Shown: piece after piece, positions 6,428-50,200 of the stretch | Layout: the number at the start of each line of letters is the position of its first letter | How positions within the stretch are numbered: the stretch's first letter is position 1 | Notes under the pieces: generated by a model | Databases searched by the model: none | What the model saw: only the letters and a program-made list of their open reading frames with translations | Told to the model about the DNA's origin: nothing | Position numbers and translations under genes: made by a program | Origin: the human T2T-CHM13v2.0 reference genome, Homo sapiens | NCBI GenBank assembly: GCA_009914755.4 | Contig: CP086569.2 | Coordinates: 4,928,001 to 4,992,000, forward strand | Direction of reading: 5' to 3' | DNA: 64,000 bases

Positions 6428-9400
6428 TTTTTTATTTTAGTTTTTTTTTAATTTTTAATTTTTGTGGGTATATATTAGGTATATATATTTATGAGGTAGA
6501 TGAGATACTTTGATACAGGTGTGCAATGCATAATAATTACATCAAAATAGGGCATCTATCCCCTCAAGCACTTATGCTTTGTGTTACAAACAATCCAGTT
6601 TCACTTTACGTTATTTTAAAATGTACTATTTAATTATTATTGACTATAGTCACCCTGCTGTGCTAGAAAATACTAGGTCTTATTCATTCTTTCTATTTTA
6701 TTTTTTACCCATTACCCATCCCCATCTCCCCCAACCCTCGAACTACTCTCCCCAGCCTCTGGTAACCATCTGTCTACTCTCAATGTCCATGAGTTCAATT
6801 GTTTTCATTTATAGATCCCACAAAGAAGTGAAAACATGAAAAGTTTGTCTTTCTGTGCCTGGCTTATTTCACTTAACCCAATGATCTTCATTTCCATCCA
6901 TGCTGTTGCAAATGACAGGATCTCAGCCTTTCTATGATTGAATATCATTGTGTATATGTATGACTTTCTTTTATCCATTCGTCTGTTGATGGACACTTAG
7001 ATTGCTTTCAAGTCTTGGCTATGGTGAACAGTGCTGCAACAAACATGGGGGTGCAGATATCACTTCATTATACTGGTTTCCTTTCTTTGGGGTATATATG
7101 CAGCAGTGGGATGGCGGGATTGTATGGTAGCTTTATATCTAGTTTTTTGAGGAACCTCCAAACTTTTCTCCATAGTGATTGTACTAATTTACATTCCCAC
7201 TAACAGGGTACAAGAGTTCCCTATACTCCACATCCTAACCAACATTTGTTATTGCCTGACTTTAGATATTTCATTTTAATTGGGGTGACATTATATCTCA
7301 TTGTAGTTTTGATTTACATTTGTCTAACAATCAACGTTGAGCAACTTTTCATATACCTGTTTGCTATTTATATTTCTGGTTTTTAGAAATATCTATTGAA
7401 ATCTTTTGCCCATTTTTAATCAGATTATTAGATTTTTTTTCCTATAGAGTTGTTTAACCTCCTCATATGTTCTGGTTATTAATCCTTTATCAGATGTGTA
7501 GCTTTTAAATATTTTCTCCCATTCTGTGTGATGTCTCTTCACTTGGCAAAATGTTTTCTTTGCTGCATAGAAGCTTTTTAACTTGATATGATGCCATTTG
7601 TCCATTTTTGCTTTGGTTGCCTTGGCTTGTAGGGTATGACTCAAGAAATTTTTGCCCAGACCAATGTCCTGGAGCATATCTTCAATGTTTTCTTGTGTTC
7701 ATTTCATAATTTCATGTCTTAGATTTAAGCCTAATTCATTGTGATTTGACTTTTTTGTATATGGTGAGAGACAGGGATCTAGTTTCATTCTTCTGCACAT
7801 GGATATCCAGTTTTCCCAACATCAGTTACTGAAGCGACTGTCTTTGCCCCAGAGTATGTTCTTGGCACCTTTGTTGAAAACGAGTTCACTGTAGGTGTAT
7901 GGATTTATTTCTCGGTTCTCTATTCTGTTCCACTGATCTATGTGTCTGTTTTTAATGTCAGTGCATGCCATTTTTGTTACTATAGCTTTGTAGTAAAATT
8001 TAAAGTCATGTAATGTTATTCCTCCGGTTTTATTCTTTTTTCTCAAGATAGCTTTGTTTACTCTGGGTGTTTGGTGTTCGCATATAAATTTTAAGATTTT
8101 TAAAAATTATTTCTGTGAAGAATGTCATTGGTATTCTTTTAGGGATTTCGTTGAATCTGGAGATTGCATTGAGTAGTGTGGCCATTTTAACAATATTCGT
8201 TCTTCCAATTCATTAACATGGAATGTCTTTCCATTTTTGTGTCCTCTACAGTTTTTTCCAGCACTGTTTTATAATGTTCATTGTCTTGATTTTTCAGTTC
8301 TTCGGTTAGGTTAATTCCTCGGTATTCACTTTTATTTGTGGCTATTGTAAATGGGCTTACTTTTTTTTCCTTTTTACATTGGTCACTGCTAGCATATAGA
8401 AATGCTACTGATTTTTCCATGTTTATTTTCTATCCTGCAATTTTACTAAATTTGTTTACCAGTTGTACGAGTGTTCTTGTGGGGTCCTTAGGTTTTTCCA
8501 AGTATAAGATCATATCATCAGCAAACCAAGATAATTTTACTTCTTCCTTTCCAATTTGGATGCCCTTTATTTCTTTCTCTTGTTTAATTGCCCTAGCTAG
8601 GACTTTCAGTGCTATGTTGAATAACAATGGTTAAAGTGGGTATCCTTGTTGTGTTCCAGATGTTGGAGGAAAGGCTTTCAGTTTTTTTCCCATTCAGTAT
8701 GATACTCAATGTGGGCCTGTTGTATATGCCTTTTATTATATTGAGGTATGTTTCTTCTATCTCTAGTTTTTTCAGGGTTTTTATCATGAAGGGATGTTGA
8801 ATTTTATCAAATACTTTTCTGGGATCAGTTGAAATGATCATATAGTTTTGTCCTTCATTCTGTTGCTATGATGTACCACATCAATTGATTTGCATATGTT
8901 GAATAATTCTTGAATCCCTATGATAAATCCCACTTGACCATGATAAATGATTTTTTTTTTTGAGGCTAATGCAATGACGGCTCACTGCTGTCTCAACTTC
9001 CTGGGCTCATGTGATTCTCCCATCTCAGCCTCCCAAGGAACTGGGACTACAGGTGTTCGCCACCATGCCTGGCTACATTTTTGTAGCTATAGGGTTTCTC
9101 CATGTTGCCCAGGCTGGTCTTGAACTCCTGGGCTCAAGCGATCTGCTCACCTCAGCCTCCCAAAGTACTGGGATTTTAGGCATAAGTCACTGGGCCCAGC
9201 AAATGATCAGTTTAAATGTATTGTTGGATTAAGTTTGCTAGTATTTTATTGAGGATTTTTGCATCAATATTCATCAGAGGTATTGGCTTGTAGTTTTCTT
9301 TCTTCACATGTCTTTGCTTTTGGTATGAGAGTAATACTGGCCTCATAGAATGAATTTGGAAGTATTCCCTTCTGCTTTATTCTTTGGAGTAGTTTGAGTA

Positions 9401-36443: not shown

Positions 36444-38650
36444 ATTTTTTTGCAAACTTTTATTTTAGGTTCATGGGTACAGGTGCAGGTTTGTTATAAA
36501 GGCAAATTGCATGTTACAGGAGTTTGCTATATGAATTGTTTTGTCACTCAGGTAATAAGCATAGTACCTGACAGACAGATTTTCAATCCTCAGCCTCTGC
36601 ACACCCTCCACCCTGAAGTAGATCCTGGGGTGTCTGTTCTTCTCTTCTTTGTGTCCATGTGTACTCAATGTTTAGCTTCTACTTATAACATGCAGTATTT
36701 GGTTTTCTGTTCCTGCATAAGTTCACTTAGGATAATGACCTCCAGCTCCATTTATGTTGCTTCAAAGGACATGATCTCATTCTCTCTTATGGCTACATAG
36801 TATTCCATGGTGAATGTGTACAACATTTTCTTTACCTAGTTTAACATTGATGGGCGTTTAGGTTGGTTCCATGCCTTTGCTACTGTGAATGGTGCTATGA
36901 TGAACATACATGTGCATGAGTCCTTATGGTAGAACAATTTCTATTCCTTTGCGTATATACCCAATCATGAGATTGCTGGGTTAAATGGTAATTTTGTATT
37001 AAGTTCTTTGAGAAATCGCCAAACCACTTTCCAAAATTGTTGAATTAATTTGCATTCCCATCAGCAGTGTAAAAGTATTGCCTTTTCTCCACAACCTTGC
37101 CGGCATTTATTATTTTTTGACTTATTAATAATAGCCATTCTTACTGGCATGCAATAGTATCTCATTGTAGTTTTCATTTGCATTTCTCTAATAATTAGTG
37201 ATACTGAACATTTTTTCATATGCCTGTTGGCCACATGTATGTACACTTTTGGAAAGTATATGTTCATGTCCTTTGCCTACTTTTTAATGGGATTGTTTGA
37301 TTTTTGCTCATTAATTTGTTTAAGTACTTTGTAGATTCTGGATATAAGACCTTTGTCAGATGCATACTTTGAAAATATTTTCTCCCATACTGTAGGTTGT
37401 CTGTTTATTCTGTTGATAGTTTCTTTTTGCTGTGTAGAAGCTCTTGAGTTTAATTAGCTCTCATGTGTCAACTTTTGATTTATTTCATTTCCTGTTGGCG
37501 AATTGTAATAAAATCTTTGCCAGAGCCTATGTGCAGAATTGTATTGCCTCAATTGTCTTCCAGAGTTTTCATATGTTAGGTGTTACATTTAAGTCTTTAA
37601 TTCATCTTAAGTAGATTTTTATATATGGTGAGAGGAATGGGTCCAGTTCCGGCACCATTTATTGAATAGGGAGTCCTTTCTCCATTGCTTGTTTTTGTCA
37701 ATTTCTGGAAGATCAAGTTATTGTAGGTGTGTTGCGTTATCTGGGGGCTCTGTCTTCTGTTCCATTGGTCAGTGAGTCTTTTTTGATGCCAGTACCATGA
37801 TGTTTTAGTTACTGTAGCCATATAGTATAGTTTGAGGTTGAGTAATGTGATGCCTCCAACTTTGTTTTTTTTACTTAGGATTGCCTTGGCTATTTGGGTT
37901 GATTTTTTTGTTTGTTTGTTTGTTTTTTGGTTTCATATAAATTTAAAGATAGCATCTTCTAATTTGCTGAAGAATGTCATTGGTAGTTTGATAGGAATAG
38001 CACTGAATCTGTAAATTGCTTTGGGCAGTATGGCCATTTAACAATATTCATCCTTCTTATCCATGAGCATGGAATGTTTTTGCATTTGTTTGTGTCATCT
38101 CTGATTTCTTTGAGCAGTGTTTTGTAATTCTCATAGTAGAGATATTTCATTTCTCTGGTTAGTTCTATTCCTAGGTATTTCATTCTTTTTATGCCTATTA
38201 TAAATAGGATTGTGTTCTTGATATGGCTCTTGGTTTGGATGTTGTTGGTGTATAGAAATACTACTGACTTTTGGACATGATTTTTGTATTATGAAATTTT
38301 GCTGAAGTTGTTTATCAGATCTAGGAGCTTTGGGGCAAAGACTATGGGGCTTCCTAGGTATAGAATGATATCACCTACAAACAGAGATAGTTTGACTTCC
38401 TCTCTTTTTATTAAGATGCCTTTTATCTTTTATTTATTTCTATTGTCTGATTTTTCTTCCTAGGACTTCCAGTACTATGTTCATTAGGAGTATTAGAGTG
38501 GTCATCTTTGTCTTGTTTCTGTTCTGAAGAGGAATGCTTCTAGCTTTTGCTCATTCAATATGATGTTGGCTGTGGGAATGTCATAGATAGCTCTTACTAT
38601 TTTGAGGTATGCTCCTTCAGAGCCTAGTTTGTTCAGGATTTTTAACGTGA
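36444..38650 (-). mobile_element. Older L1 (minus), 3' end through mid-ORF2 (RT). Host of the L1PA insertion at 38651.
   Basis: Antisense L1 3'UTR (ttttttgcaaacttttattttaggttcatgggtacaggtgcaggtttgttataaaggcaaattgcatgt…). Minus-strand ORF2 peptides …SLIIREMQMKTTMRYYCMPVRMAIINKSKNNKC…, …[51 protein letters not shown]…, …[38 protein letters not shown]…. Confidence 0.85.
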
Positions 38651-39510
38651 AAGGATATGAACAGACACTTCTCAAAAGAAGACATTTATGCAGCCAACAA
38701 GCATATGAAGAAGAGCTCATCATCACTGGTCATTAGAGAAATGCAAATCAAAACCACAATGAGATACCATCTCATGCCAGTTAGAATGGCGATCCTTACA
38801 AAGTCAGAAAACAACAGATGCTGGAGAGGATGCAGAGAAATAGGAACGCTTTTACACTATTGGTGGGAGTGTAAATTAGTTCAACCATTGTGGAAGACAG
38901 TGTGGCAATTCCTCAAGGATCTAGAGCCAGAAATAACATTTAACTCAGCAATCCCATTATTGAGTATATAACCAAAGGATTATAAATCATTCTACTAAAA
39001 AGACACATGCACAAGTATGTGTGTTGCAGCACTGTTCACAATAGCAAACCCTTGGAACCAACCCAAATGCCCATCAATGATACACTGAATAAAATGTGGC
39101 ACATATATGCCATGGAATACTATGCAGCCATAAGAAAGGATGAGTTCATGTCCTTTGCAGGGACATGGATGAAGCTGGAAACCGTCATTCTCAGCAAACT
39201 AACACAAGAACAGAAAACCAAACACCGCATGTTCTCACTCATAAGTGGGAGTTGAACAATGAGAACACATGGACACAGGGAGGGGAACATCACACACCAG
39301 GCCTGTCGGTGGGTAGGGGGCTAGGGGAGGGATAGCATTAGGAGAAATACCTAATGTAGATGATGGGTTGATTGGTGCAGCAAACTACCATGGCACGTTT
39401 ATACCTATGTAACAAAGCTGCACATTCTGCATATGTATCCCAGAACTTAAAGTGTTAAAAAAAAAAAAAGCTATGCATTCAAAATTTTTAAAAAAATAAA
39501 AATTAAAAAA
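38651..39510 (+). mobile_element. L1PA-type 3' fragment (ORF2 C-terminus, 3'UTR and A-rich tail) inserted into the older minus-strand L1
   Basis: Plus-strand ORF2 peptides [92 protein letters not shown]… and …EPTQMPINDTLNKMWHIYAMEYYAAIRKDEFMSFAGTWMKLETVILSKLTQEQKTKHRMFSLISGS. Canonical 3'UTR …gtatcccagaacttaaagtgttaaaaaaaaaaaaa. TSD ttaa[c/a]gtga (38642-38650 and 39515-39523). Confidence 0.88.
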
Positions 39511-39900
39511 ATTCTTAAAGTGAGTTTTTAGCTCTATCTGATCAGCTTGGTTCTTTCTTAAAACAGACATTTCATGTATCTCCTGGGTTATTTTATTGTA
39601 TTCCTTAGATTTCTTGGATTGCATTTCAAGTTTCTCCTGAATCTTGATGGTCTTCATTTATATCCACACTCTGAATTCTATTTCTGTCGTTTTAGCCATA
39701 TCAGCCTGGTTAAGAACCATTTCTGGGGAACTAGAGCAGTTATTTGGAGGTGAGAAAACACTCTGGTTTTTGAGTTGCCATAGTTCTCACACTAGTTCTT
39801 TCTCATCTGTGTTGGCTGTTTCTTCTATCTTTGGAATTGCTATCCTTTGGATGAGAATTTACTTGTTTCTTCTTTGATGCCTTTGGGGGTTTGATTGTGA
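39511..39900 (-). mobile_element. Continuation of the older minus-strand L1 on the far side of the L1PA insertion (ORF2 EN-RT linker region). About 0.8 kb of the host L1 appears to be missing at the junction. The right boundary is uncertain.
   Basis: Sequence just past the TSD (gagtttttagctctatctgatcagcttggttc…) continues L1 ORF2 antisense. The minus-strand peptide …TIKIQEKLEMQSKKSKEYNKITQEIHE… loosely resembles ORF2 …[22 protein letters not shown]…. Confidence 0.5.
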
Positions 39901-40444
39901 TATAAGGTTGATTCAGTTGACTGGCTTTGTTTCTGGACGATTTTGGGGCACCAAGGCTCAGCTCAGCACTCTTGGGCTGTGTGCTCTAATTCTGGGAGGC
40001 AGGTATTGGGCCCCCAGCTTTGTTTTCTGGCCTCTGCAAATTAGGAATCTGCTGTGCTGGAGGGACTGAAACATTCCCTGTCTGCAGCCACAACACTCTG
40101 ATGGGTTGTACTGGCTAAAACACTTTCTTGGGGTGGTGACAGCAGAATTCATGCTTGCTCATGTGTACCAGTAGCCATGGCAGCACAGCATGTGTATTTG
40201 TATTTGTGCATGTGTATTTGCTGGGGTTGGGTACTGGTAGGAGTGGGACATTGGTGTTCTTGGGTGAACTTGTGTAGGTGGTGTGGTGGGGGTGGGGGAC
40301 TGGCAGGGGTAGGGTTGCCTGTGTCCATGCTTGCACTTGTACCAGCAGTGATGGCAGCATGGGTGGGTCACTGGTGGTTTCAAGGATGCTGCCCTCCATG
40401 CACACATTTGCATTGGCAGCAGTGATGGCCTCATTTTAGTTATA

Positions 40445-40830
40445 AACTTTTTTAAGGACATATTAACATACATTTTATTTTTTGTTCTTCTAAAAATCTA
40501 ACTTTATAGTTTACATACAATACAATGCACCAATTTTGATTGTACAGTTCAACATGTTCAGAAAAATGTATACACCCATGTAACTACCACCACAATCAAG
40601 GTATGGAACATTTCTATCAAATCCACACAAATGAAAAATAAATAAATAATAAATAAATAAATAAATAAATAGTTTTGTCATGTTACTATGTGGTCAGTCT
40701 TTCCTCTTCCCTGTTCCAGGCAACTACTACTTTGTTTTCTGCCATGACATGATAGGTAAGTTTGCTTATTCCAGAATTTCATTTAAATGAAATCACAAGG
40801 TAATTATAGATTTATGATTTTATTATAATT
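40445..40830 (+). mobile_element. Ancient L1M-type 3'-end fragment containing an (AAAT)n microsatellite (40633-40670)
   Basis: …tttacatacaatacaatgcaccaattttgattgtacagttcaacatgtt…cacccatgtaactaccaccacaatcaaggtatggaacatttctatcaaatccacac… and …ctgttccaggcaactactactttgttttctgccatgacatgataggtaagtttgcttattccagaatttcatttaaatgaaatcaca… resemble L1MB/MC/MD 3' ends (…caccacaatcaagatatagaacatttccatcacccc…cctctggcaaccaccaatctgttctctgtatctatgag…ttagattccacatataagtgagatcat…). Confidence 0.55.
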
Positions 40831-41081
40831 GAGAAACTTATTAGTTCTAAATTGGACAGTGCAATAAATTTTTTGTTGTTTTTTGTTTTTCTCCCCGGGA
40901 GAGGCAGTTTAATGAGCTCGGGGCCAATACAAAAGATCAAATTTCTCTCCATGGGGAAATGCAGGAACCCACAGAACACTACGCTTGCTGGGAAAGCGGG
41001 TAGCTTCTCATTTAGTTGCAGGAGGAGGAGATAGCTCCCAGGGCTTTCAGAGGAAAGCATGGCCTTCAGCATCAGGGACAT

Positions 41082-41288
41082 TGGGGGTGCACTCCAGGAT
41101 CTGAGGGGTAAACTTCAGGAGGCTGAGGGTGGACCCAAGGAGCTGCAGGATGGATTCCAGAAGCTTACAGGTGGTCTCTGGGAGGCTGGGCATTGAACCC
41201 CATTGCCTGAGGGTGGATCCCTGGGGCTCGTGGGTATGCTCCTGGGGCCTGGGGGTAAACTACAGGGGCTGATGGATGCACACCATCC
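41082..41288. repeat. Unclassified G-rich minisatellite-like block, ~9 degenerate units of ~21-22 bp (consensus roughly GGTGGAYCCCAGGRGCTGAG)
   Basis: gggggtgcactccaggatctgag | gggtaaacttcaggaggctgag | ggtggacccaaggagctgcag | gatggattccagaagcttacag | gtggtctctgggaggctgggcattgaaccccattgcctgag | ggtggatccctggggctcgtg | ggtatgctcctggggcctgg | gggtaaactacaggggctgatg. Confidence 0.6.
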
Positions 41289-42943
41289 ATGTTGTTGCAA
41301 ATGACTGGATGATCTCATTCTTTTTTTATGGCTGAATAGTACCCCATTGTGGATAAGTGTCACATTTTCCTTATTCATTCATCCCTTGATGGATACTTAG
41401 GTTGCTTCTAAATCTTGGCTATTGTGAATAGTGTTGCAACAAACATGGGAGTGCGGATATCACTTTGTTATACTGCGGATATCACTTTGATACACTTATA
41501 TATCCCTTTTGGATATATACCCAATAGTGAGATTGCTGGATTTTATGGTAACTTTATTTTTAGTTTTTTTGATGAACCTCCAAACTTTTCTTCATAGTAG
41601 TTGTACTAATTTACATTCCCACCAACAATGTACAAAGGTTTTCTTTTCTCCACATCCTTACCAGCATTTGTTATTGCCTGACTTTTGGATAAAACCCACT
41701 TAAATTGGGTGATGTCTCATTGTAGTTTTGATTTAAATTTCTCTGAGGATCAATGATGTTGAGCACTTTTTATATGCCTGTTTGCCATTTCTATTCAGAA
41801 ATGTCTATTCAAATCTTTTGCCCATTTTTAATTGGATTGTTAGATTTTTTTTCCTCTAGAGTTGTTTGAGCTCCTTATATATTCTGATTATGAATCTCTT
41901 GTCAGATGGATAGTTTCCAAATAGTTTCTCCCTTTCTCTGGGCTGTCTCCTCACTTAGTTGATAATATATTTTGCTGTGCAGAAGCTTTTTAACTTGATG
42001 TGATTCCATTTGTCCATTTTGCTTTGGTTGCCTGTGCTTCTGGGATATGACTGAAGAAGTTTTTGCCCAGAACAATGTCTTAGAGAGTTTCTCCAAAGTT
42101 TTCTTGTAGTACTTTCATAGTCTTAGATTTAAGTCTTTTCATTGATTTTGATTTGATATTTTTGTAAGGTGAGAGACAGAGATCAAGTTTCATTCTTCTG
42201 ACTACGAATATCCAGTTTTTCCAGCATCATCCATTGAAGAAACTGACTTTTCTCTAGTGTATGTTCTTGGTACCTTTGTCAAAAATGAATTCACTGCAGG
42301 TGTATGGATTTGTTTCTGAGTTGTCTGTGCTGTTCCATTGATCTGTGTGTCTTTTTATGCTGGTACCATGCTGTTTTGGTTATTATAGCTTCATAGTATA
42401 ATTTGAAGTCAAGTAATATGATTCCTGTAGTGTTGTTCCTTGTGATCAGGATGGGTTTGGCTATTATGAGTCACTTGTGATTCCATATACCTTTTAGAAT
42501 TATTTTTTTTTCCATTTGTGTGAAAAATGTCATTGGTATTTTGCATTGAATCTGTAAATTCCTTTGGGTAGCATGGACATTTTAACAATATTGGCTCTTG
42601 TGATTGATGAGCATGGAATATCTTGAATTTTTGTGTCCTCTTTGTTTCATCTGTGCTTCATGGTATTAATTATAAAGATCCTTCACTTCTTTGGATAAGT
42701 TAATTCCTAGGTATTTCATTTTATTTGTAGCCCTTGTAAATGGGATTACTTTTTTATTTCTTTTTCAAGTTGTTCACTGTTCGCATATAGAAATACTTCT
42801 GATTTTTTTGGCTTAATTTTGTATCCTGCAACTATACTGAATTTATTTATCAGTTCTAATTGTTATTCGGTGGCGTCTTTTGGTTTTTCCAACAGTAAGA
42901 TCGTTATCAACTGCAAAGATAAATAATTTCACTTCTTCCTTTA

Positions 42944-43268
<325 letters not shown>

Positions 43269-44632
43269 AAATTTGGATGTCCTTTATTTCCTTCTCTTTT
43301 CTGATTGCTCTAGCTAGCACTTCTCATGCTATGTTGAATAATAGTGGTGAAAGTGGGTATCCTTGTCATGTTCCAAATATAAGAAGTAAGGCTTTCAGTT
43401 TTTCCCCATTAACTATAATATTAGACTTAGGTCTGTCATTTATTGCTATTATTATGTTGAGATACGTTCCTTCTATACCTAGTTTTTGAGGGTTTTTATC
43501 AGGAAGAGGTGTTTAATTTTATCAAATGCTTTTTAGCATCAATTGAGATAACCATATGGTTTTTGTCCTTCATTCTGTCGATATGACATATCACATTGAT
43601 TTGTGTATGTGGAGTCATCTTTGCATCCTTGTGATAAATCCCACTTGGTTATGATGAATGCTCTATTTAATATATTGTCTAATTCAGTTTGTAGTATTTT
43701 ATTTAAGATTTTTGCATCAATATTCAGGAGAGATATTGGCCTGTAGTTTCCTTTTTTTGATACGTTTGTCTGGCATCTTCTTTTGGTATCAGGGTAATAC
43801 TGGCCACGTTGAATGAGTTTGGCAACAGTCCCTCTTCCTCTATTTTTTGAAAAGTTTGAGTAGAATTGGTACTAGCTCTTCTTTAAATGTCTGGTAGAAT
43901 TCAGCAGTGAAGCCAGCAGGTTTCAGGCTTTTCTTTCCTGGGAGACTTTTTCTTTAGAGCTTCGATCTTGTTACTTGTTATTGGTCTGTTCAGGTTTGGG
44001 ATTTCTTCATGATTCCATGTTGGTAGGTTGTATGTGTCTAGGAATTTATCTATTTCTTCTAGGTTTTCCAATTTAAAGGCATGTAGTTGCTCACAGTAAC
44101 CACTGATGATTCTTTGAATTTGTGGTATCCATTGTAATGTCTCCTTTTTCATCTCTGATTTTATTTATTTTTGTCTTTCCTTTTCTTAGTCGGGCTACAG
44201 ATTAGTAAATTTTGATTATATTTTCAAAGAAACCAACTTTTCGTTTCATTGATCTTCTATGTTGTTTTCCTCATTTCAAGTTCATTTAATTGTTCTGATC
44301 TTTATTAATTTCTTTTCTTCTATAATAAGTTTGTATTGAGTTTGTTCTTGCTTTTCTAGTTCTCTAAGATGCATCACTGAGTTATTTATTTGAAGGGTTT
44401 TTGTTTGTTTGTTTTTATGTAGGCATTTACAGTTATCAGTCTCCCCCTTAGTACTGCTTTTGCTGTATTCCAAAGATTTTGGTATATTGTGTTTCCATTT
44501 TCAGTTGTTTTGAGAAATTTTTAAATTTTCTTCTTAATTTCTTTATTGACCCACTGACTCACTGATCATTTAGGAACATATTGTTTAGTTTCCATGTGTT
44601 TTTATAGCTTCCACAATTCCTCTGGTTATTGA

Positions 44633-44980
<348 letters not shown>

Positions 44981-45810
44981 TGATATTGTTTCAATTTTTT
45001 GAATGTTTTAAGACTAGTTTTGTGACTTATTATATGGTCTGTCATTGAGAATGATCCATGTGCAGGGGAGAAAAAAATGTGCATTCTGTAGCTGTTTGAT
45101 GAAATGTTCTGTAAATATTAGTTCCATTTGTTCTACTATGCAGATTAAATCTGAAGTTTCTTTGTTGATTTTCTGTGTGGAATATCTGTCCAATCCTGAA
45201 AGCGGGGTGAAGTCTCTAACTATTATTGTATTAGGGTATATCACTCTCTTCAGCTCTAGTAATACTTGTTTTACATGTCTTGGTGTGCCAGTGTTGGGTG
45301 CATATATGTTTACAAATGTTAAATCTTCTTGTGGAATTGACCCCTTTATCATTGTATAATGACCATTATTGTGTTTTATACTTTTCGTCTTTAAATCTGT
45401 TTTGTCTAATGTCACTATACATACTCCTGCTCTTTTTTGGTTTATATTGGCATGGAATATCTTTTTCCATCTTTTTTTTTAGTGTGTGTTTATCTTTATA
45501 GGTGAAATGTGTTTCTTGTAGGCAACAGGTCATTGGGTCTTCTTTTGTTTAATCAGTTCAGCCACTCTGTCTTTTGATTGGAGAGTTTATTTTATTTACA
45601 TTCAATATTATTATTGATAAGTAGGTACCTACTCCTGCCATTTTGTTATTTATTTTCAATTATTTTGCGGTCTTTTTTTCTGCCTTACTGTCTTCCTTTT
45701 CTCTGGTGGTATTCTTTAACTTCTTGCTTTTTAGTTTTTGTGTATCCATTGTATGATTTTTGCTTTGAGATTACCATGAGGCTTGCAACTATTATCTTAA
45801 AACTGATATT

Positions 45811-46100
45811 ATTTTTTTGAGACAAAGTCTCGCTCTGTCACCCAGGCTGGAGTGCAGTGGCACGATTTTGACTCATTACAACCTCCACCTCCTGGGTTCA
45901 AGTGATTATTTTGCCTCAGCCCCGCAAGTAGCTGGGATTACAGACATGCACTACCATGCCCATCCAATTTTTGTATTTTTAGTAGAGACAGGGTTTTGTC
46001 ACGTTGGCCAGGCTGATCTCAAACTCCTGACCTCAGGTGATCTGCCTGCCTCGGCCTCCCAAAGCACTAGCCAGGATTACAGTCTTGAGCCACAGCAACC
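45811..46100 (-). mobile_element. Alu SINE nested in L1 no.2
   Basis: tttttttgagacaaagtctcgctctgtcacccaggctggagtgcagtggcacgattttgactcattacaacctccacctcctgggttcaagtgatt…ggattacagtcttgagccacagcaacc. TSD aac[t/c]tgat. Confidence 0.88.
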
Positions 46101-46922
46101 AACCTGATTTTTTAAATGGATAACAATAACACTGATTGCATAAACAAACATGCAAAAAAAAAAACTAATAAAAACTCTACACTTTAACTTCATCCCCCCA
46201 TTATTTTAACTTTTTATTGTTTTTCTTTATGTCTTATTTTGCTGTGTCTTGCAAAAATGTTGGAGTTATTATTTTTGATTGGTTCATAATTTATTCTTTC
46301 TATTTAGAGTAAGAGTAGTTCACACACCACCATTACAGTGTTATACTCGTCTGTGTTTTTCTCTGTACTTACTATTAATATTCCCCATGAGTTTTGTATC
46401 TTCAAGTGATTTCTCCTTGCTCATTATCATCCTTTTCTTTTAGATTGGAGATTTCCCTTTAGTATTTCTTATAGGACATGAAATCCCTCAGGTTTTGGTT
46501 GTGTGGGAAGGGCTTTATTTCTCCTTCATGCTTACAGAATATTTTCACAAGATATACTATTCTAGAATAAAAATTTTATTTCCTTCAACAGTGTAAATAT
46601 GTCATTCCACTCTCTCTTGTCCTGTAAGGTTTCTACTGAAAAGTTTGATGCAAGATGTATTGGAGCTTCAATGTATGTTATTTGTTTCTTTTCTCTTGCT
46701 GCTTTTAGGATCCTTTCTTTATCCTTAACCTTTTGGAGTTTGATTATTAAATGCCTTGAGGTGATCTCCTTCAGGTTAAATCTGCTTGGTATTCTGTAAC
46801 TTTCTTGTACTTGAGTGTTAATATCTTTCTCTAGGTTTGGAAAGTTTTCTAATATTATCCATTTGAATATACTTTCTACCCCTGTTTCTTTTTCTACCTC
46901 CTCTTTAAGGCCAGTAACTCTT

Positions 46923-47236
<314 letters not shown>

Positions 47237-50200
47237 TTATATGTGCCCTTTTTAGGCTATTTCCTAGATCTTGTAGGCATGCTTCATAGTTTTTTATTCT
47301 TTTTTCTTTTGTCTCCTCTGACTGTGTATTTTTAAATAACCTGTCTTCAAGCTCACTAATTCTTTGTCTGCTTGATCACGTGTGCTATTAAGAGAATCTG
47401 ATGCATTATTCAGCATGTCAGTTGCATCTTTCCACTCTAGAATTGTTGGATTTATCTGATAAAATTCTGAATTCCTTCTCTGTGTTATCTTGAATTTCTT
47501 TGATTTTCCTCAAAACAGCTTTTTTGAATTATCTCTCTGAAACATCATATATCTCTCTTTCTCCAGGATTGGTCCCTGGTGCCTCATTTAGTTCATATGA
47601 TGATGTCACATTTTCCTGGATGGTATTGATATTTGTAAGTGTTCATCGGTGTCTGGGCATTAAAGAGAGTTAGATATTTATTGTAGTTTTCAGTGTCTGG
47701 GCTTGTTTTTCCCTATCCTTATAGGGAAGACTTTCTAGGAATTTGAAGGGACCTGGGCTCCAAGTCTAATAATGCTGTGGTTCTTGCAGACTCATAGAGG
47801 TACCTCTTTGGTAGTCTTGGATAATATCTGGAAGAATTCTTGGAATCACCAGGCAGAGAGTATGCTCTTTTCTCTTGCTTTCTCTCAAACAAATGAAGTC
47901 TCTTTTCCTGTGCTGAGCTGTCTGCAACTGGGGGTGTGGTGATGCAAGCACCTCTGTGGCCACTACCACTGGGACTTTGCTAGGTCATTCCTGAAGCCAG
48001 CACAGTTCTGGCCCTTGCCCATGGCCTTCTCTTCAGGGTGGCAAGTTCCTATAAGCCCAGTGATGCTTTCTTAGAGCCAGGGATTATTCTATTCTACTGC
48101 GGCTAAGCTTGCCCTCAAACCACAATACAAAGTCCTTCCCACTGTTCTCTTCCCTTTCCACAGGCAGAGGAGCCTCTCCCTGTGGCCAGCAGTACACCAG
48201 TCCATGGGGGATTTCTTCCAGGCCACCGCTTATGTTCCCTTAAAGCCCAAGACCTCTTGCATCAGCCTGTGGTGAATGCAGCCAGGCTTGAACTCACCCT
48301 TTATGGCAATGGACTCCCTCTGGCCAAGGGCATGTCTAGAAATGCTGTCCAAGAGCCTAGGCGTGAACTCAGGAACCCCAAAAGACTGCTTGTTGCTCTA
48401 CCCCACTGTGGCCAAGCTGGTATCTAGGGTGCAAAACAAAGTCCCTTTTGCAGTTCCCACTGCTTTTCTCAAGCAGAAGGAGTTTTGCCCTATAACCACC
48501 ACTGCTGATAGTGCGCTGAGTTTCCCTGAAGCCATCACATCTCAGAGGCTCACTAAGACCTTCGTGTAGTACCTGGGTATCACTGCTGATTATTCAGAGC
48601 CCAAGGGCTCTTCAGTTAACAGGTGATAAATGCTGACAGGACTGCATCCTTTCCTTCAAGGCAGAAGGTTCCCTTTTGACCCAGGATGTGTCTAGAAATA
48701 CCATGTCGGAGCTAAGGCTTGGAATGAGACCTTCTTGAATGTGCCCAGTGCCCTGTCCTACTGTGGCTGAGCTGGTATCTATGATGCAATACAAAGTCTT
48801 CTTTATTCTTCATTCTCCTCTTGTTAAACAGAAAGTAGGAGTCCCTTTCATTGTTATGAGCCACACTGCCTGGGGTAGGGGGTGGCATGGTGCAAGCACT
48901 CCCATAGCCTCACCAGCTAGTGTCTCCTTAGGACACATGCCACTCTGTTCACTGGCTCTAGGTCGAGCCTAGCACAAGGAGTTCCCTAGGAATTGCAGAC
49001 CTTGTTTCCTAGACTGCTTTTCAAGTATATCAAAGATCCTAGAGTACATTAGCTTGTGGTGGCAAGGCTTGATGGGAAACCCAAGTTCCAACAACTGGGA
49101 TGGCAGATTCCCCTCTGACTAGGGCTGGTCCAAATGCTCCTTCTGTGCATGAGTGCTGGCTGAGTTCGGCATTTATTTATTTACTGTGACAGGGTAGCAC
49201 TGAGTTCAATGTAAAGTCTCCCAGTCACTGCTCTCTGTCTTCCCAAAATGCACATATTCTTTCTCCATACCTCGTGGCCACAACCAGGGGCTGGGGGAAG
49301 GGTGGCATCAGTGATTCAAGACTGTCTCTTCTGCCCTCCTCAATGCTTCTTTCCAGGTTATGAAGTTAAAGCCGTGTACTATGATTGCTTACCTGATTTT
49401 TAGTTCTTGTGATGGTGCTTTTCTGTGTGTAGATAAAATTTGGTGTTGCAGCGGGGGAAATGGTAAGTATAGGCTTCTATTCCATCATCTTGCTCTGCCT
49501 TCTCTTTACAACTGTGGCAATATTCGTTGCAGAAGAGTGTGTATTGTCCTTTTACTTTAAGCCTACGCTGAAAATGAGAGAGACAATTCTCATTCCATAT
49601 CTAATACAATGAGTGGAAACTGGAAAGCTAACTGGTAAAAGGAGTGAGAATAAGATAAGATATCTTACCATGTTTCATCCACCTTACCTAATTTATAGTC
49701 TCTAAATATCTGCAGAGCATTTATACAGGAACCTGGAGGCAATGGAAGAGCAATATACTTGTATGTATGAATATATGCAGGATAGATTTTCAGATGAATA
49801 GGTAACTGATGGTCATTGTTGAATGGGTCAGTTCTTTAGGGGTAGTAGGAGTCTAAATGAGGCAAGTAGCACCTTTAATGATGAGACAGTTAATCCGGAT
49901 ATTTCAACAAAGATGGGGGTGGTTTGTTTTGTACAGAAAAATAGTTAAATGACTAGAATACTGGGAGGCCGTACCCATTTTGGAATTGTAACAGGAGAAT
50001 CTGATTTAGACTCATCCAGGTAGGATAAAAGCTGGCTATAAACATGTGTAGGACAATGTCAAGGTGCTGTTTGCAAGTGTTTCATGTGTGCATGATAGAA
50101 TACAATTTGATGCTCACCAAGTTCATTTATTTTCTTTTCTTATGATGCATCATTTACACGTGGTCATTCAAAGATGCTTTGTTTCCATTAGATATGTTTA

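What the first reader, a model, noticed from the sequence alone, without database searches (positions are those of the whole stretch)
40850..41640. L1 no.2 lacks its terminal ~450 bp and abuts an unclassified G-rich ~21-bp-period minisatellite, suggesting a post-insertion rearrangement
In L1 no.1 the 3' end extends ~465 bp beyond the motif catccatg[c/t]tgttgcaaatgaca to a proper T-tail (on the plus strand). In L1 no.2 the same motif (41284) is preceded by a ~200-bp G-rich block of about nine degenerate 21-22-bp units (GGTGGAYCCCAGGRGCTGAG-like, 41082-41288). Before that lies ~230 bp of unclassified, CpG-containing sequence starting with a T-run (40850-41080). Retrotransposition does not produce 3'-truncated L1s, so a deletion, gene conversion or insertion of another element happened here. 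G-rich minisatellites are known recombination and instability hotspots and may be copy-number polymorphic. The block has G-runs (gggg, ggggg) that could support G-quadruplex formation.
Basis: seen in the sequence. Interest (0 to 1): 0.5.

Follow-up and report, generated by a model that had tools for sequence, protein, structure and literature searches.

The report
SF3A2 pseudogene fragment inside old L1
The "G-rich minisatellite" is the reverse complement of the repeat-coding 3' end of a splicing-factor (SF3A2) mRNA that was retro-copied into an ancient LINE-1, whose supposedly missing tail sits intact just beyond the insert; this is ordinary genomic debris.

Summary
Read on the minus strand, 41284->40869 is a 5'-truncated processed pseudogene of splicing factor SF3A2. 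It contains the last ~10 GVHPxAP heptad-repeat codons (hence the exact 21-nt period), the rest of the C-terminal coding sequence, the position of the stop codon, the complete 3'UTR, the parental ATTAAA signal and a 22-nt A-rich tail (the plus-strand "T-run"). It aligns colinearly with the last exon of orangutan SF3A2 (E=1e-61), and SF3A2 is its only match in the PDB (residues 378-456 of 464).

L1 no.2 is not 3'-truncated. Its last ~29 ORF2 codons and 3'UTR lie at 40868->~40490, directly beyond the tail and in the same orientation. That piece matches the 3' ends of independent L1 copies (z up to 17.8 with the bait motif masked), and in those copies the ORF2 end runs straight into this 3'UTR.

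So a retrocopy was inserted into a pre-existing full-length old L1. No deletion, gene conversion or in-situ minisatellite is needed. I proposed a template-switch L1-mRNA chimera midway and rejected it. No target-site duplication can be proved; there is only a TSD-sized length excess of 12-19 nt. The insert is old (non-CpG K2P ~0.27 to the parent). Interest is low.

The parts
41283..49505 (-). L1 no.2, 5' portion: 5'UTR through ORF2 up to codons ...SFATTWM. It is interrupted by Alu insertions at about 42955-43270, 44679-44972, 45807-46100 and 46920-47222. The 5' end is approximate.
   Evidence: It is colinear with L1 no.1 (6894->16801). Minus-strand ORFs 45014-45415 and 43901-44152 match human LINE-1 ORF2p residues 79-181 (E=9e-28) and 406-471 (E=1e-15). 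The 5'UTR-like end was read.
41283..41284 (-). Junction between L1 and SF3A2. The two bases GG are shared by both alignments (microhomology of 1-2 nt).
   Evidence: The L1 no.1/no.2 alignment ends at 41283. The SF3A2 alignment starts at 41284 <-> L001:8190.
41075..41284 (-). SF3A2-derived heptad-repeat coding region, about 10 units of GVHPxAP (21 nt each), now broken by a stop and frameshifts.
   Evidence: Translation. SF3A2 residues 378-456 are the only PDB hit, E=3.4e-17. DNA alignment to orangutan SF3A2. Lag-21 autocorrelation. The heptad is described in PMC2691831.
41011..41074 (-). SF3A2-derived non-repeat C-terminal coding remainder, homologous to ...MPPMLRPPLPSEGPGNIPPPPPTN. It is frameshifted.
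41008..41010 (-). TGA at the position homologous to the parental SF3A2 stop codon.
   Evidence: Alignment ...CAACTAAATGAGAAGCT vs ...CAACCAACTGAGAAGCT.
40891..41007 (-). SF3A2 3'UTR (117 nt), including the parental poly(A) signal ATTAAA at 40913->40908.
   Evidence: It is colinear with L001:8450-8557, including GCTCATTAAAC. It is also alignable to the goat and rat 3'UTRs.
40869..40890 (-). A-rich tail of the retrocopy (AAAAACAAAAAACAACAAAAAA).
   Evidence: The parent genomic sequence continues with CGCACTGATG... instead of A's.
40490..40868 (-). L1 no.2, 3' portion: the last ~29 ORF2 codons plus the old-type L1 3'UTR. It contains a secondary (AAAT)n microsatellite at 40636-40671. The first ~20 nt (about 40847-40868) may be a decayed target-site duplication.
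   Evidence: The composite is colinear with an independent L1 copy, L004. In bait-masked tests, z=17.8 (L009), 14.9 (L004), 7.5 (L005) and 6.2 (L014), against about -1 for non-L1 controls.
40440..40489 (-). Degenerate A-rich remnant of L1 no.2's own poly(A) tail. The limits are approximate.
   Evidence: Sequence read. It follows ...CTATAAAGTTAGATTTTT, which corresponds to the ...CTCAATAAAGCTG end of L004.

Best explanation
A full-length, old (L1M-like 3'UTR) LINE-1 was already present on the minus strand, spanning about 49505->40440. Later, the LINE-1 retrotransposition machinery reverse-transcribed a cellular SF3A2 mRNA from its poly(A) tail. Synthesis or integration stopped after about 395 nt, all within the last exon. 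The resulting 5'-truncated cDNA was integrated in the same orientation into ORF2 of that L1, 29 codons before its stop codon. The insert brought with it the 21-nt periodic coding sequence for the GVHPxAP heptads of SF3A2, the 3'UTR, the ATTAAA signal and an A-tail. Read on the plus strand, this looks like a T-run, then an unclassified block, then a G-rich 21-bp repeat. The insert has since decayed neutrally and has no function.

Shown directly: the identity of the insert, its exact end at the parental poly(A) site, the presence and orientation of the displaced L1 3' end, and the loss of the reading frame. Inferred: that L1 endonuclease/TPRT did it, because no TSD or EN motif can be proved, and the age.
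For: Identity of the insert. SF3A2 is the only PDB match, aligned in register to residues 378-456 of 464, E=3.4e-17. The query sequence was verified as human SF3A2. blastn to the orangutan SF3A2 locus (L001, with AMH downstream) gives 8190-8557, E=1e-61, running through the stop codon, the 3'UTR and ATTAAA. The heptad PPAPGVH is documented for SF3A2 (PMC2691831).

RNA origin. The A-rich tail starts 17 nt after ATTAAA, where the parent genome reads CGCACTG.

Not a splice product. The breakpoint L001:8190 is about 495 nt inside the last exon, which starts near 7696.

The L1 is split, not truncated. With the insert removed, L1 no.2 is colinear with independent L1 copies from other assemblies. The post-tail piece matches their 3' ends with the bait masked (z=6-18), while non-L1 controls give z about -1. 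The wrong orientation scores much lower (38 against 79, in the unmasked test).

Length budget. From GGATG to the GATTYC landmark there are 61-67 nt in intact copies and 79-80 nt in the split copy. The excess of 12-19 nt is TSD-sized.

L1 identity. ORF2p matches.

Pseudogene state and age. The frame contains stops and frameshifts. Non-CpG K2P is 0.27, C>T changes dominate, and GC has fallen from 0.66 to 0.56.
Against: No target-site duplication reaches significance: the L1 sequence before the insert against the sequence after the tail scores 10, against 13.1+-2.6 in shuffles. The first ~70 nt of the displaced L1 piece are so decayed that MAFFT and manual registers disagree, so the exact resumption base is unknown. 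No clear TT/AAAA endonuclease motif can be reconstructed. Absence of introns, the classic hallmark of a processed pseudogene, cannot be tested because the fragment lies within a single exon. The orangutan assembly has frameshifting indels in the repeat (P0015), which slightly inflates the divergence estimates.
Confidence: 0.93

Rival explanations
1. Single-event L1-mRNA chimera. L1 reverse transcriptase started on the poly(A) tail of SF3A2 mRNA, copied about 395 nt, then switched template to an L1 RNA inside ORF2 and copied it to its 5' end. This would give a genuinely 3'-truncated L1 fused to an mRNA tail, flanked as a whole by one TSD.
For: The two parts have the same orientation, the junction has 1-2 nt of microhomology, and the L1 part is full-length. 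I initially saw a TSD-like match, ACAGTGCAATA vs ACTGTGGCAATA, flanking the whole block.
Against: The L1 3' end that this model says was never copied lies directly after the tail. It is in the same orientation and in register with the breakpoint to within about 20 nt. The whole-block TSD candidate is at chance level, 14 against 13.2+-2.6. Described L1 chimeras carry the foreign RNA at the 5' side and end in the L1 3' end (bioRxiv 10.1101/2025.02.02.635956), which is the opposite order.
Confidence: 0.02
2. One reading: L1 no.2 lost its last ~450 bp through a post-insertion deletion or rearrangement next to an in-situ, recombination-prone G-rich minisatellite.
For: The 21-nt periodicity is real. 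Homology to L1 no.1 stops abruptly at 41283. G-runs are present.
Against: The L1 3' end is present. The repeat units align one for one, in order, with the parental SF3A2 heptad codons and continue into its 3'UTR and poly(A) site, so the periodicity was imported rather than generated in place. TRF finds only 2.1 copies, and unit identity is about 53%.
Confidence: 0.02
3. Same nested retrocopy, but integrated without L1 endonuclease, by capture of an SF3A2 cDNA at a pre-existing double-strand break inside the L1. In that case no true TSD would exist, and the 12-19 nt excess would be filler DNA.
For: No TSD and no EN motif can be demonstrated. The roughly 20 nt after the tail (TTTATTGCACTGTCCAATTTAG) do not align convincingly to the L1 sequence that precedes the insert.
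Against: An old TSD is expected to be unrecognisable at this level of divergence (about 25% per copy). The length excess is exactly in the usual TSD range. The insert has a proper A-tail at the poly(A) site, as in ordinary TPRT events. Endonuclease-independent events are rare (my own knowledge of the field, not tested here).
Confidence: 0.04

Closest known systems
5'-truncated processed pseudogene (retrocopy of a cellular mRNA made in trans by LINE-1)
   Same: It derives from the 3' end of an mRNA, ends at the parental poly(A) site 17 nt after the retained ATTAAA, carries an A-rich tail that the parent locus does not encode, lies at an unrelated locus, has lost its reading frame, and is 5'-truncated as most L1-mediated insertions are.
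   Different: Nothing essential differs. The fragment lies within one exon, so intron loss cannot be shown, and the TSDs are too decayed to prove.
Nested retroelement insertion (one retroposed sequence inside an older L1)
   Same: An older L1 is split into two colinear pieces by a younger retroposed sequence. Four Alus interrupt the same L1 in the same way.
   Different: The insert is an mRNA fragment rather than an Alu or L1. Its same-sense orientation and internal coding repeat make it look like a truncation plus a satellite.
L1 chimeric retrocopies (U6/L1, Alu/L1, mRNA/L1; template switching, RNA ligation or trans-splicing)
   Same: L1 sequence and non-L1 RNA-derived sequence are juxtaposed in the same orientation, with microhomology at the junction.
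   Different: In described chimeras the foreign RNA is 5' and the L1 supplies the 3' end and tail, with one TSD around the whole. Here the L1's own 3' end resumes after the foreign tail, so two separate events explain it.
G-rich minisatellite / VNTR
   Same: There are head-to-tail units with a 21-nt period, G-rich on one strand, and some relaxed G4 motifs.
   Different: The periodicity is inherited from a protein-coding heptad repeat. The units are only ~53% alike, and TRF calls just 2.1 copies. There is no evidence of in-situ expansion or polymorphism.

Membership tests
Processed pseudogene (L1-mediated mRNA retrocopy) | Sequence homologous to a known mRNA, colinear through the CDS end and 3'UTR | tested here: met
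   PDB: SF3A2 is the only hit, E=3.4e-17. blastn to the orangutan SF3A2 last exon gives E=1e-61 through the stop codon and 3'UTR. The goat and rat 3'UTRs are also alignable.
Processed pseudogene (L1-mediated mRNA retrocopy) | Ends at the parental polyadenylation site with an A-rich tail not encoded at the parent locus, with the poly(A) signal 10-30 nt upstream | tested here: met
   ATTAAA lies at 40913-40908 and the tail at 40890-40869 starts 17 nt later. The parent continues CGCACTGATG.
Processed pseudogene (L1-mediated mRNA retrocopy) | Lacks the parent's introns | tested here: inconclusive
   The whole fragment maps inside the last exon (L001 about 7696-8575), so no exon junction is covered.
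Processed pseudogene (L1-mediated mRNA retrocopy) | Flanked by target-site duplications at an L1 endonuclease-like site | tested here: inconclusive
   There is a length excess of 12-19 nt between fixed L1 landmarks, but sequence similarity of the putative copies is at chance. No EN motif can be reconstructed.
Processed pseudogene (L1-mediated mRNA retrocopy) | Located away from the parent gene and not coding | tested here: met
   The parent lies next to AMH, whereas this copy lies inside an L1. The frame is broken by stops and frameshifts, and non-CpG K2P is 0.27.
3'-truncated L1 | The L1 3' end (ORF2 terminus, 3'UTR, tail) is absent from the locus | tested here: not met
   The 3' end is present at 40868->~40440 on the minus strand. 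It is colinear with independent L1 copies and significant with the bait masked.
L1-RNA chimeric insertion (template switch / ligation / trans-splicing) | Both parts arrive in one event: one TSD flanks the whole, and the internal L1 end is truly missing | tested here: not met
   The whole-block TSD candidate is at chance, and the L1 3' end resumes after the tail. The breakpoint is not at an exon boundary, and the order is opposite to described chimeras.
Minisatellite / VNTR | Tandem array of 10-100 bp units detectable as such | tested here: inconclusive
   Lag-21 autocorrelation is significant, but TRF reports only 2.1 copies with score 57. The units are ~53% identical.
Minisatellite / VNTR | The array arose or varies by in-situ unit gain and loss (length polymorphism) | not testable with these tools
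   No population or orthologous assemblies were available. Unit-for-unit colinearity with the parental coding repeat argues against an in-situ origin.
LINE-1 (host element L1 no.2) | Encodes ORF2p endonuclease and reverse-transcriptase homologous sequence in the order of the element | tested here: met
   Human ORF2p residues 79-181 map to 45014-45415 and residues 406-471 to 43901-44152, both on the minus strand.

The most novel reading that the evidence does not exclude
The retrocopy is a dated molecular fossil of the SF3A2 heptad array. It has eleven heptads where human, orangutan and naked mole-rat SF3A2 have ten (the extra unit is RDHL*AS at about 41148-41168). The extra unit is no closer to its neighbours than background, so the ancestral mRNA may have carried a unit that the living gene later lost. 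This would give a time-stamped snapshot of how a coding proline-rich repeat array changes copy number.
Probability: 0.35. Interest if true: 0.15.

Novelty: already known. Interest (0 to 1): 0.07.

Why it matters
It matters mainly as a correction. An apparent exception to the rule that retrotransposition does not give 3'-truncated L1s disappears once the minus strand is read and the older-type L1 3'UTR beyond the insert is recognised. There are two practical lessons for the scan. First, a T-run followed by an unclassified block should be read in reverse as a poly(A) tail plus 3'UTR. Second, a repeat period that is a multiple of three (21 = 7 codons) suggests an imported coding repeat rather than a satellite. 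Biologically this is one more dead retrocopy. The only mild interest is that it preserves an old state of the SF3A2 heptad array.

Tried and rejected
1. Template-switch L1-mRNA chimera. This was my working model. I rejected it when the sequence left of the tail turned out to be the L1 3' end on the minus strand and the whole-block TSD proved to be at chance.

2. My initial reading of 40500-40865 as a plus-strand L1 3'UTR was wrong in orientation. I corrected it.

3. Splicing origin of the junction. Rejected because the breakpoint is about 495 nt inside the last SF3A2 exon.

4. TSD searches gave nothing significant. I tested the insert's flanks, the whole block, and L1 no.2's own ends.

5. The first two word-indexed protein searches failed. 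The decayed peptide shares no 5-mers, and the compositionally biased C-terminal query passed no hit at 1e-10. The full-length query worked.

6. The bait motif scanned in genome contigs and viral contigs gave only chance bacterial and phage hits.

7. Anchoring the L1 breakpoint on solved ORF2p or Pfam using the decayed C-terminal translation gave no hit. L1 no.1's intact reading frame was used instead.

8. My first significance test included the 22-mer used to fish the comparison loci, which was circular. I redid it with the bait masked and with non-L1 controls.

9. The tamarin SF3A2 locus (L022) diverges mid-UTR, probably an assembly or model problem, and was not used for dating.

10. A literature search for named SF3A2 pseudogenes found nothing.

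Full report
OBSERVATION. The region was read on both strands. The motif CATCCATG[C/T]TGTTGCAAATGAC occurs only at 6895 and 41284. In-window BLAST shows L1 no.1 and L1 no.2 colinear from 6894<->41283 rightward, and nothing else in the window resembles 40300-41282. L1 no.1 continues about 455-465 bp past the motif to an A-tail on the minus strand. TRF reports only 2.1 copies of a 21-nt unit at 41084-41129, score 57. A direct test nevertheless shows the periodicity is real: base identity at lags 21, 42 and 63 is 0.52-0.53, against 0.27+-0.03 in dinucleotide-preserving shuffles, and 0 of 1000 shuffles reach it. G-runs are present. There is no canonical G3+N1-7 quadruplex motif, only relaxed-loop versions, and the G4Hunter maximum is 1.84.

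WHAT THE BLOCK IS. On the minus strand the plus-strand T-run becomes an A-rich tail (40890->40869), preceded by ATTAAA (40913->40908). One minus-strand frame of the "G-rich repeat" reads GVHPSAP VVYPQAP GAYPRAP GIHPQA... GIHPAAP WVHPQPP EVYPSDP GVHPQCP*, a proline-rich heptad repeat. A phmmer search of this conceptual peptide against all PDB chains returns one protein only, human splicing factor 3A subunit 2 (SF3A2). The match is aligned in register to residues 378-456 of 464, E=3.4e-17. [quoted passage not shown]

I verified a full-length SF3A2 query against the PDB copy. I used it to obtain orthologue ids and fetched the orangutan gene with flanks (L001, with AMH immediately downstream). The window's minus strand 41284->40897 aligns colinearly with L001:8190-8557 (E=1e-61). 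The alignment covers the last heptads, the non-repeat C-terminal codons, the stop codon position (41010-41008), the entire 3'UTR and the same GCTCATTAAAC signal. Homology ends 17 nt after ATTAAA, where the window has the A-tail and the parent genome continues CGCACTGATG. That is the signature of an RNA-derived copy that ends at the poly(A) site. The 5' breakpoint (L001:8190) lies about 495 nt inside the last exon, whose acceptor is near L001:7696, so it is a 5' truncation and not a splice junction. The frame is broken by stops and frameshifts. The 21-nt period is simply seven codons, and the parent's heptad-coding region shows the same period (lag-21 identity 0.65).

IS L1 no.2 TRUNCATED? L1 no.2 is a long minus-strand element. 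It is colinear with L1 no.1 out to about 49,435, with a 5'UTR-like end near 49,505, and is interrupted by four Alus. Its minus-strand ORFs match human LINE-1 ORF2p residues 79-181 (E=9e-28) and 406-471 (E=1e-15). It stops at ...SFATTWM. In L1 no.1, which still reads in frame here, that point is 29 codons before the ORF2 stop.

My first model was a template-switch chimera, with reverse transcription starting on SF3A2 mRNA and then jumping to L1 RNA, and I thought I saw a TSD around the whole block. Re-reading 40440-40868 on the minus strand (after) suggested instead the sense strand of an old-type L1 3' end. I had at first mis-oriented it. To test this without relying on memory, I fished independent L1 copies from public metagenome assemblies (host contamination) with a 22-mer from that piece.

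Several loci (L004/L008/L010, L005, L006/L012, L007, L009, L013, L014) are L1 copies. In five of these distinct copies (L004, L006, L007, L009, L013) the ORF2 end (...ACA[AC]GGATGAATCT...) is visible about 61-67 nt upstream of the bait and runs straight into this 3'UTR type. With 40869-41282 removed, L1 no.2 is colinear with L004 over its whole length, down to ...CTTGATTGTGGTG.TACA..GGT.TATACAT...TTATTGTATGT...ATAAAG.

My first significance test contained the bait, so I repeated it with the bait masked and the (AAAT)n microsatellite removed. The post-tail piece matches the 3' ends of L009 (z=17.8), L004 (14.9), L005 (7.5) and L014 (6.2). Three non-L1 contigs that merely contain the bait give z about -1, and in the earlier unmasked test the wrong orientation scored much lower (38 against 79). 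L1 no.2 therefore still has its 3' end, at 40868->~40490, followed by a degenerate A-rich remnant to about 40440.

MECHANISM. The simplest account needs two ordinary events: an old full-length L1, followed by a nested, same-orientation insertion of a 5'-truncated SF3A2 retrocopy into its ORF2. The junction shares 1-2 nt (GG, 41283-41284) between the two alignments.

Between two fixed L1 landmarks (GGATG and GATTYC), intact copies have 61-67 nt (L013 61, L1 no.1 64, L004 and L007 67). The split L1 no.2 has 79-80 nt. The excess of 12-19 nt is the size of a typical target-site duplication. However, the putative duplicate is not recognisable above chance (score 10 against 13.1+-2.6). The first ~70 nt after the tail are too AT-decayed for base-exact registration, and no endonuclease motif can be reconstructed. 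Integration by L1 endonuclease/TPRT is therefore inferred, not shown. The whole-block TSD I had noticed is also at chance (14 against 13.2+-2.6), as is any TSD for L1 no.2 itself.

AGE. Against the orangutan parent the retrocopy shows non-CpG K2P of 0.27, with C>T the dominant change (28 of 84) and GC falling from 0.66 to 0.56. Over the unique 3' part, retro-orangutan distance is 0.31, retro-goat 0.35 and orangutan-goat 0.30. A three-point estimate puts about 0.18 on the retrocopy's own branch. This indicates a very old insertion, tens of millions of years, possibly near the base of or before the primate radiation. The estimate is rough: the parent is constrained, the orangutan assembly has indels in the repeat, and the tamarin locus was unusable.

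COMPARISON WITH KNOWN KINDS. This is a textbook 5'-truncated processed pseudogene nested in an older L1. It is not a member of the L1-chimera class. Those carry the foreign RNA at the 5' side, end in the L1 3' end, and are bounded by one TSD (bioRxiv 10.1101/2025.02.02.635956), and here each of those features was tested and not met. It is not a minisatellite in the usual sense. The units correspond one to one with the parental heptad codons, they are only ~53% alike, and TRF barely calls them. No paper names an SF3A2 pseudogene in the searched library, but the kind of object is entirely familiar.

SIDE OBSERVATION. The retrocopy has one more heptad (about 41148-41168) than human, orangutan and naked mole-rat SF3A2 in the same stretch. 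It is not a recent local duplication (57% identity to the neighbouring unit by manual comparison of the sequence, against the ~53% lag-21 background). So the parental array may have lost a unit since retroposition.

VERDICT. The truncation and the recombination-hotspot ideas are not supported. The finding is ordinary and its interest is low.

Noticed in passing
window 41452-41496: A 22-bp tandem duplication (TGCGGATATCACTTTGATACAC, 2.0 copies, 91% identical) lies inside the ORF2 region of L1 no.2. It was found by TRF and is probably a small replication-slippage duplication.
   Followed up: no
window 40636-40671: An (AAAT)n microsatellite (9.2 copies) is embedded in the displaced 3'UTR of L1 no.2. 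Independent L1 copies lack it at that position, so it arose secondarily.
   Followed up: partly
window 36629-39470: A minus-strand L1 segment (36629-38650) abuts a plus-strand L1 3' end (38650-39470, with its poly(A) at about 39450-39470) exactly at 38650. The two overlap by about 620 nt in L1 coordinates and are only ~75% identical. They therefore look like two different L1s rather than a twin-priming inversion.
   Followed up: partly
window 39520-40440: A GC-rich (up to 58%), strongly G-skewed stretch with no relative elsewhere in the window lies directly beyond L1 no.2's tail. By eye it resembles an old L1 5'UTR on the minus strand, but this was not tested.
   Followed up: no
window 41115-41378 (minus strand): A mechanical 87-aa ORF runs from L1 ORF2 sequence across the junction into the SF3A2-derived repeat in a non-native frame. 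There is no evidence that it is a gene.
   Followed up: no
window 41148-41168 (minus strand): The retrocopy has one extra heptad unit compared with human, orangutan and naked mole-rat SF3A2. This may be a remnant of an ancestral repeat-array state.
   Followed up: partly
L001 (orangutan GCA_002880775.3) 8030-8400; protein P0015: The deposited orangutan SF3A2 protein model goes out of frame within the heptad repeat (GGPPPSSRSPPSS...). This indicates indel errors in that assembly's copy of the GC-rich repeat.
   Followed up: no
L009 (human oral metagenome contig), L004/L008/L010, L006/L012, L013, L014: Public metagenome assemblies contain mammalian L1 sequence, presumably host contamination. Identical L1-bearing contigs recur in different samples.
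   Followed up: partly
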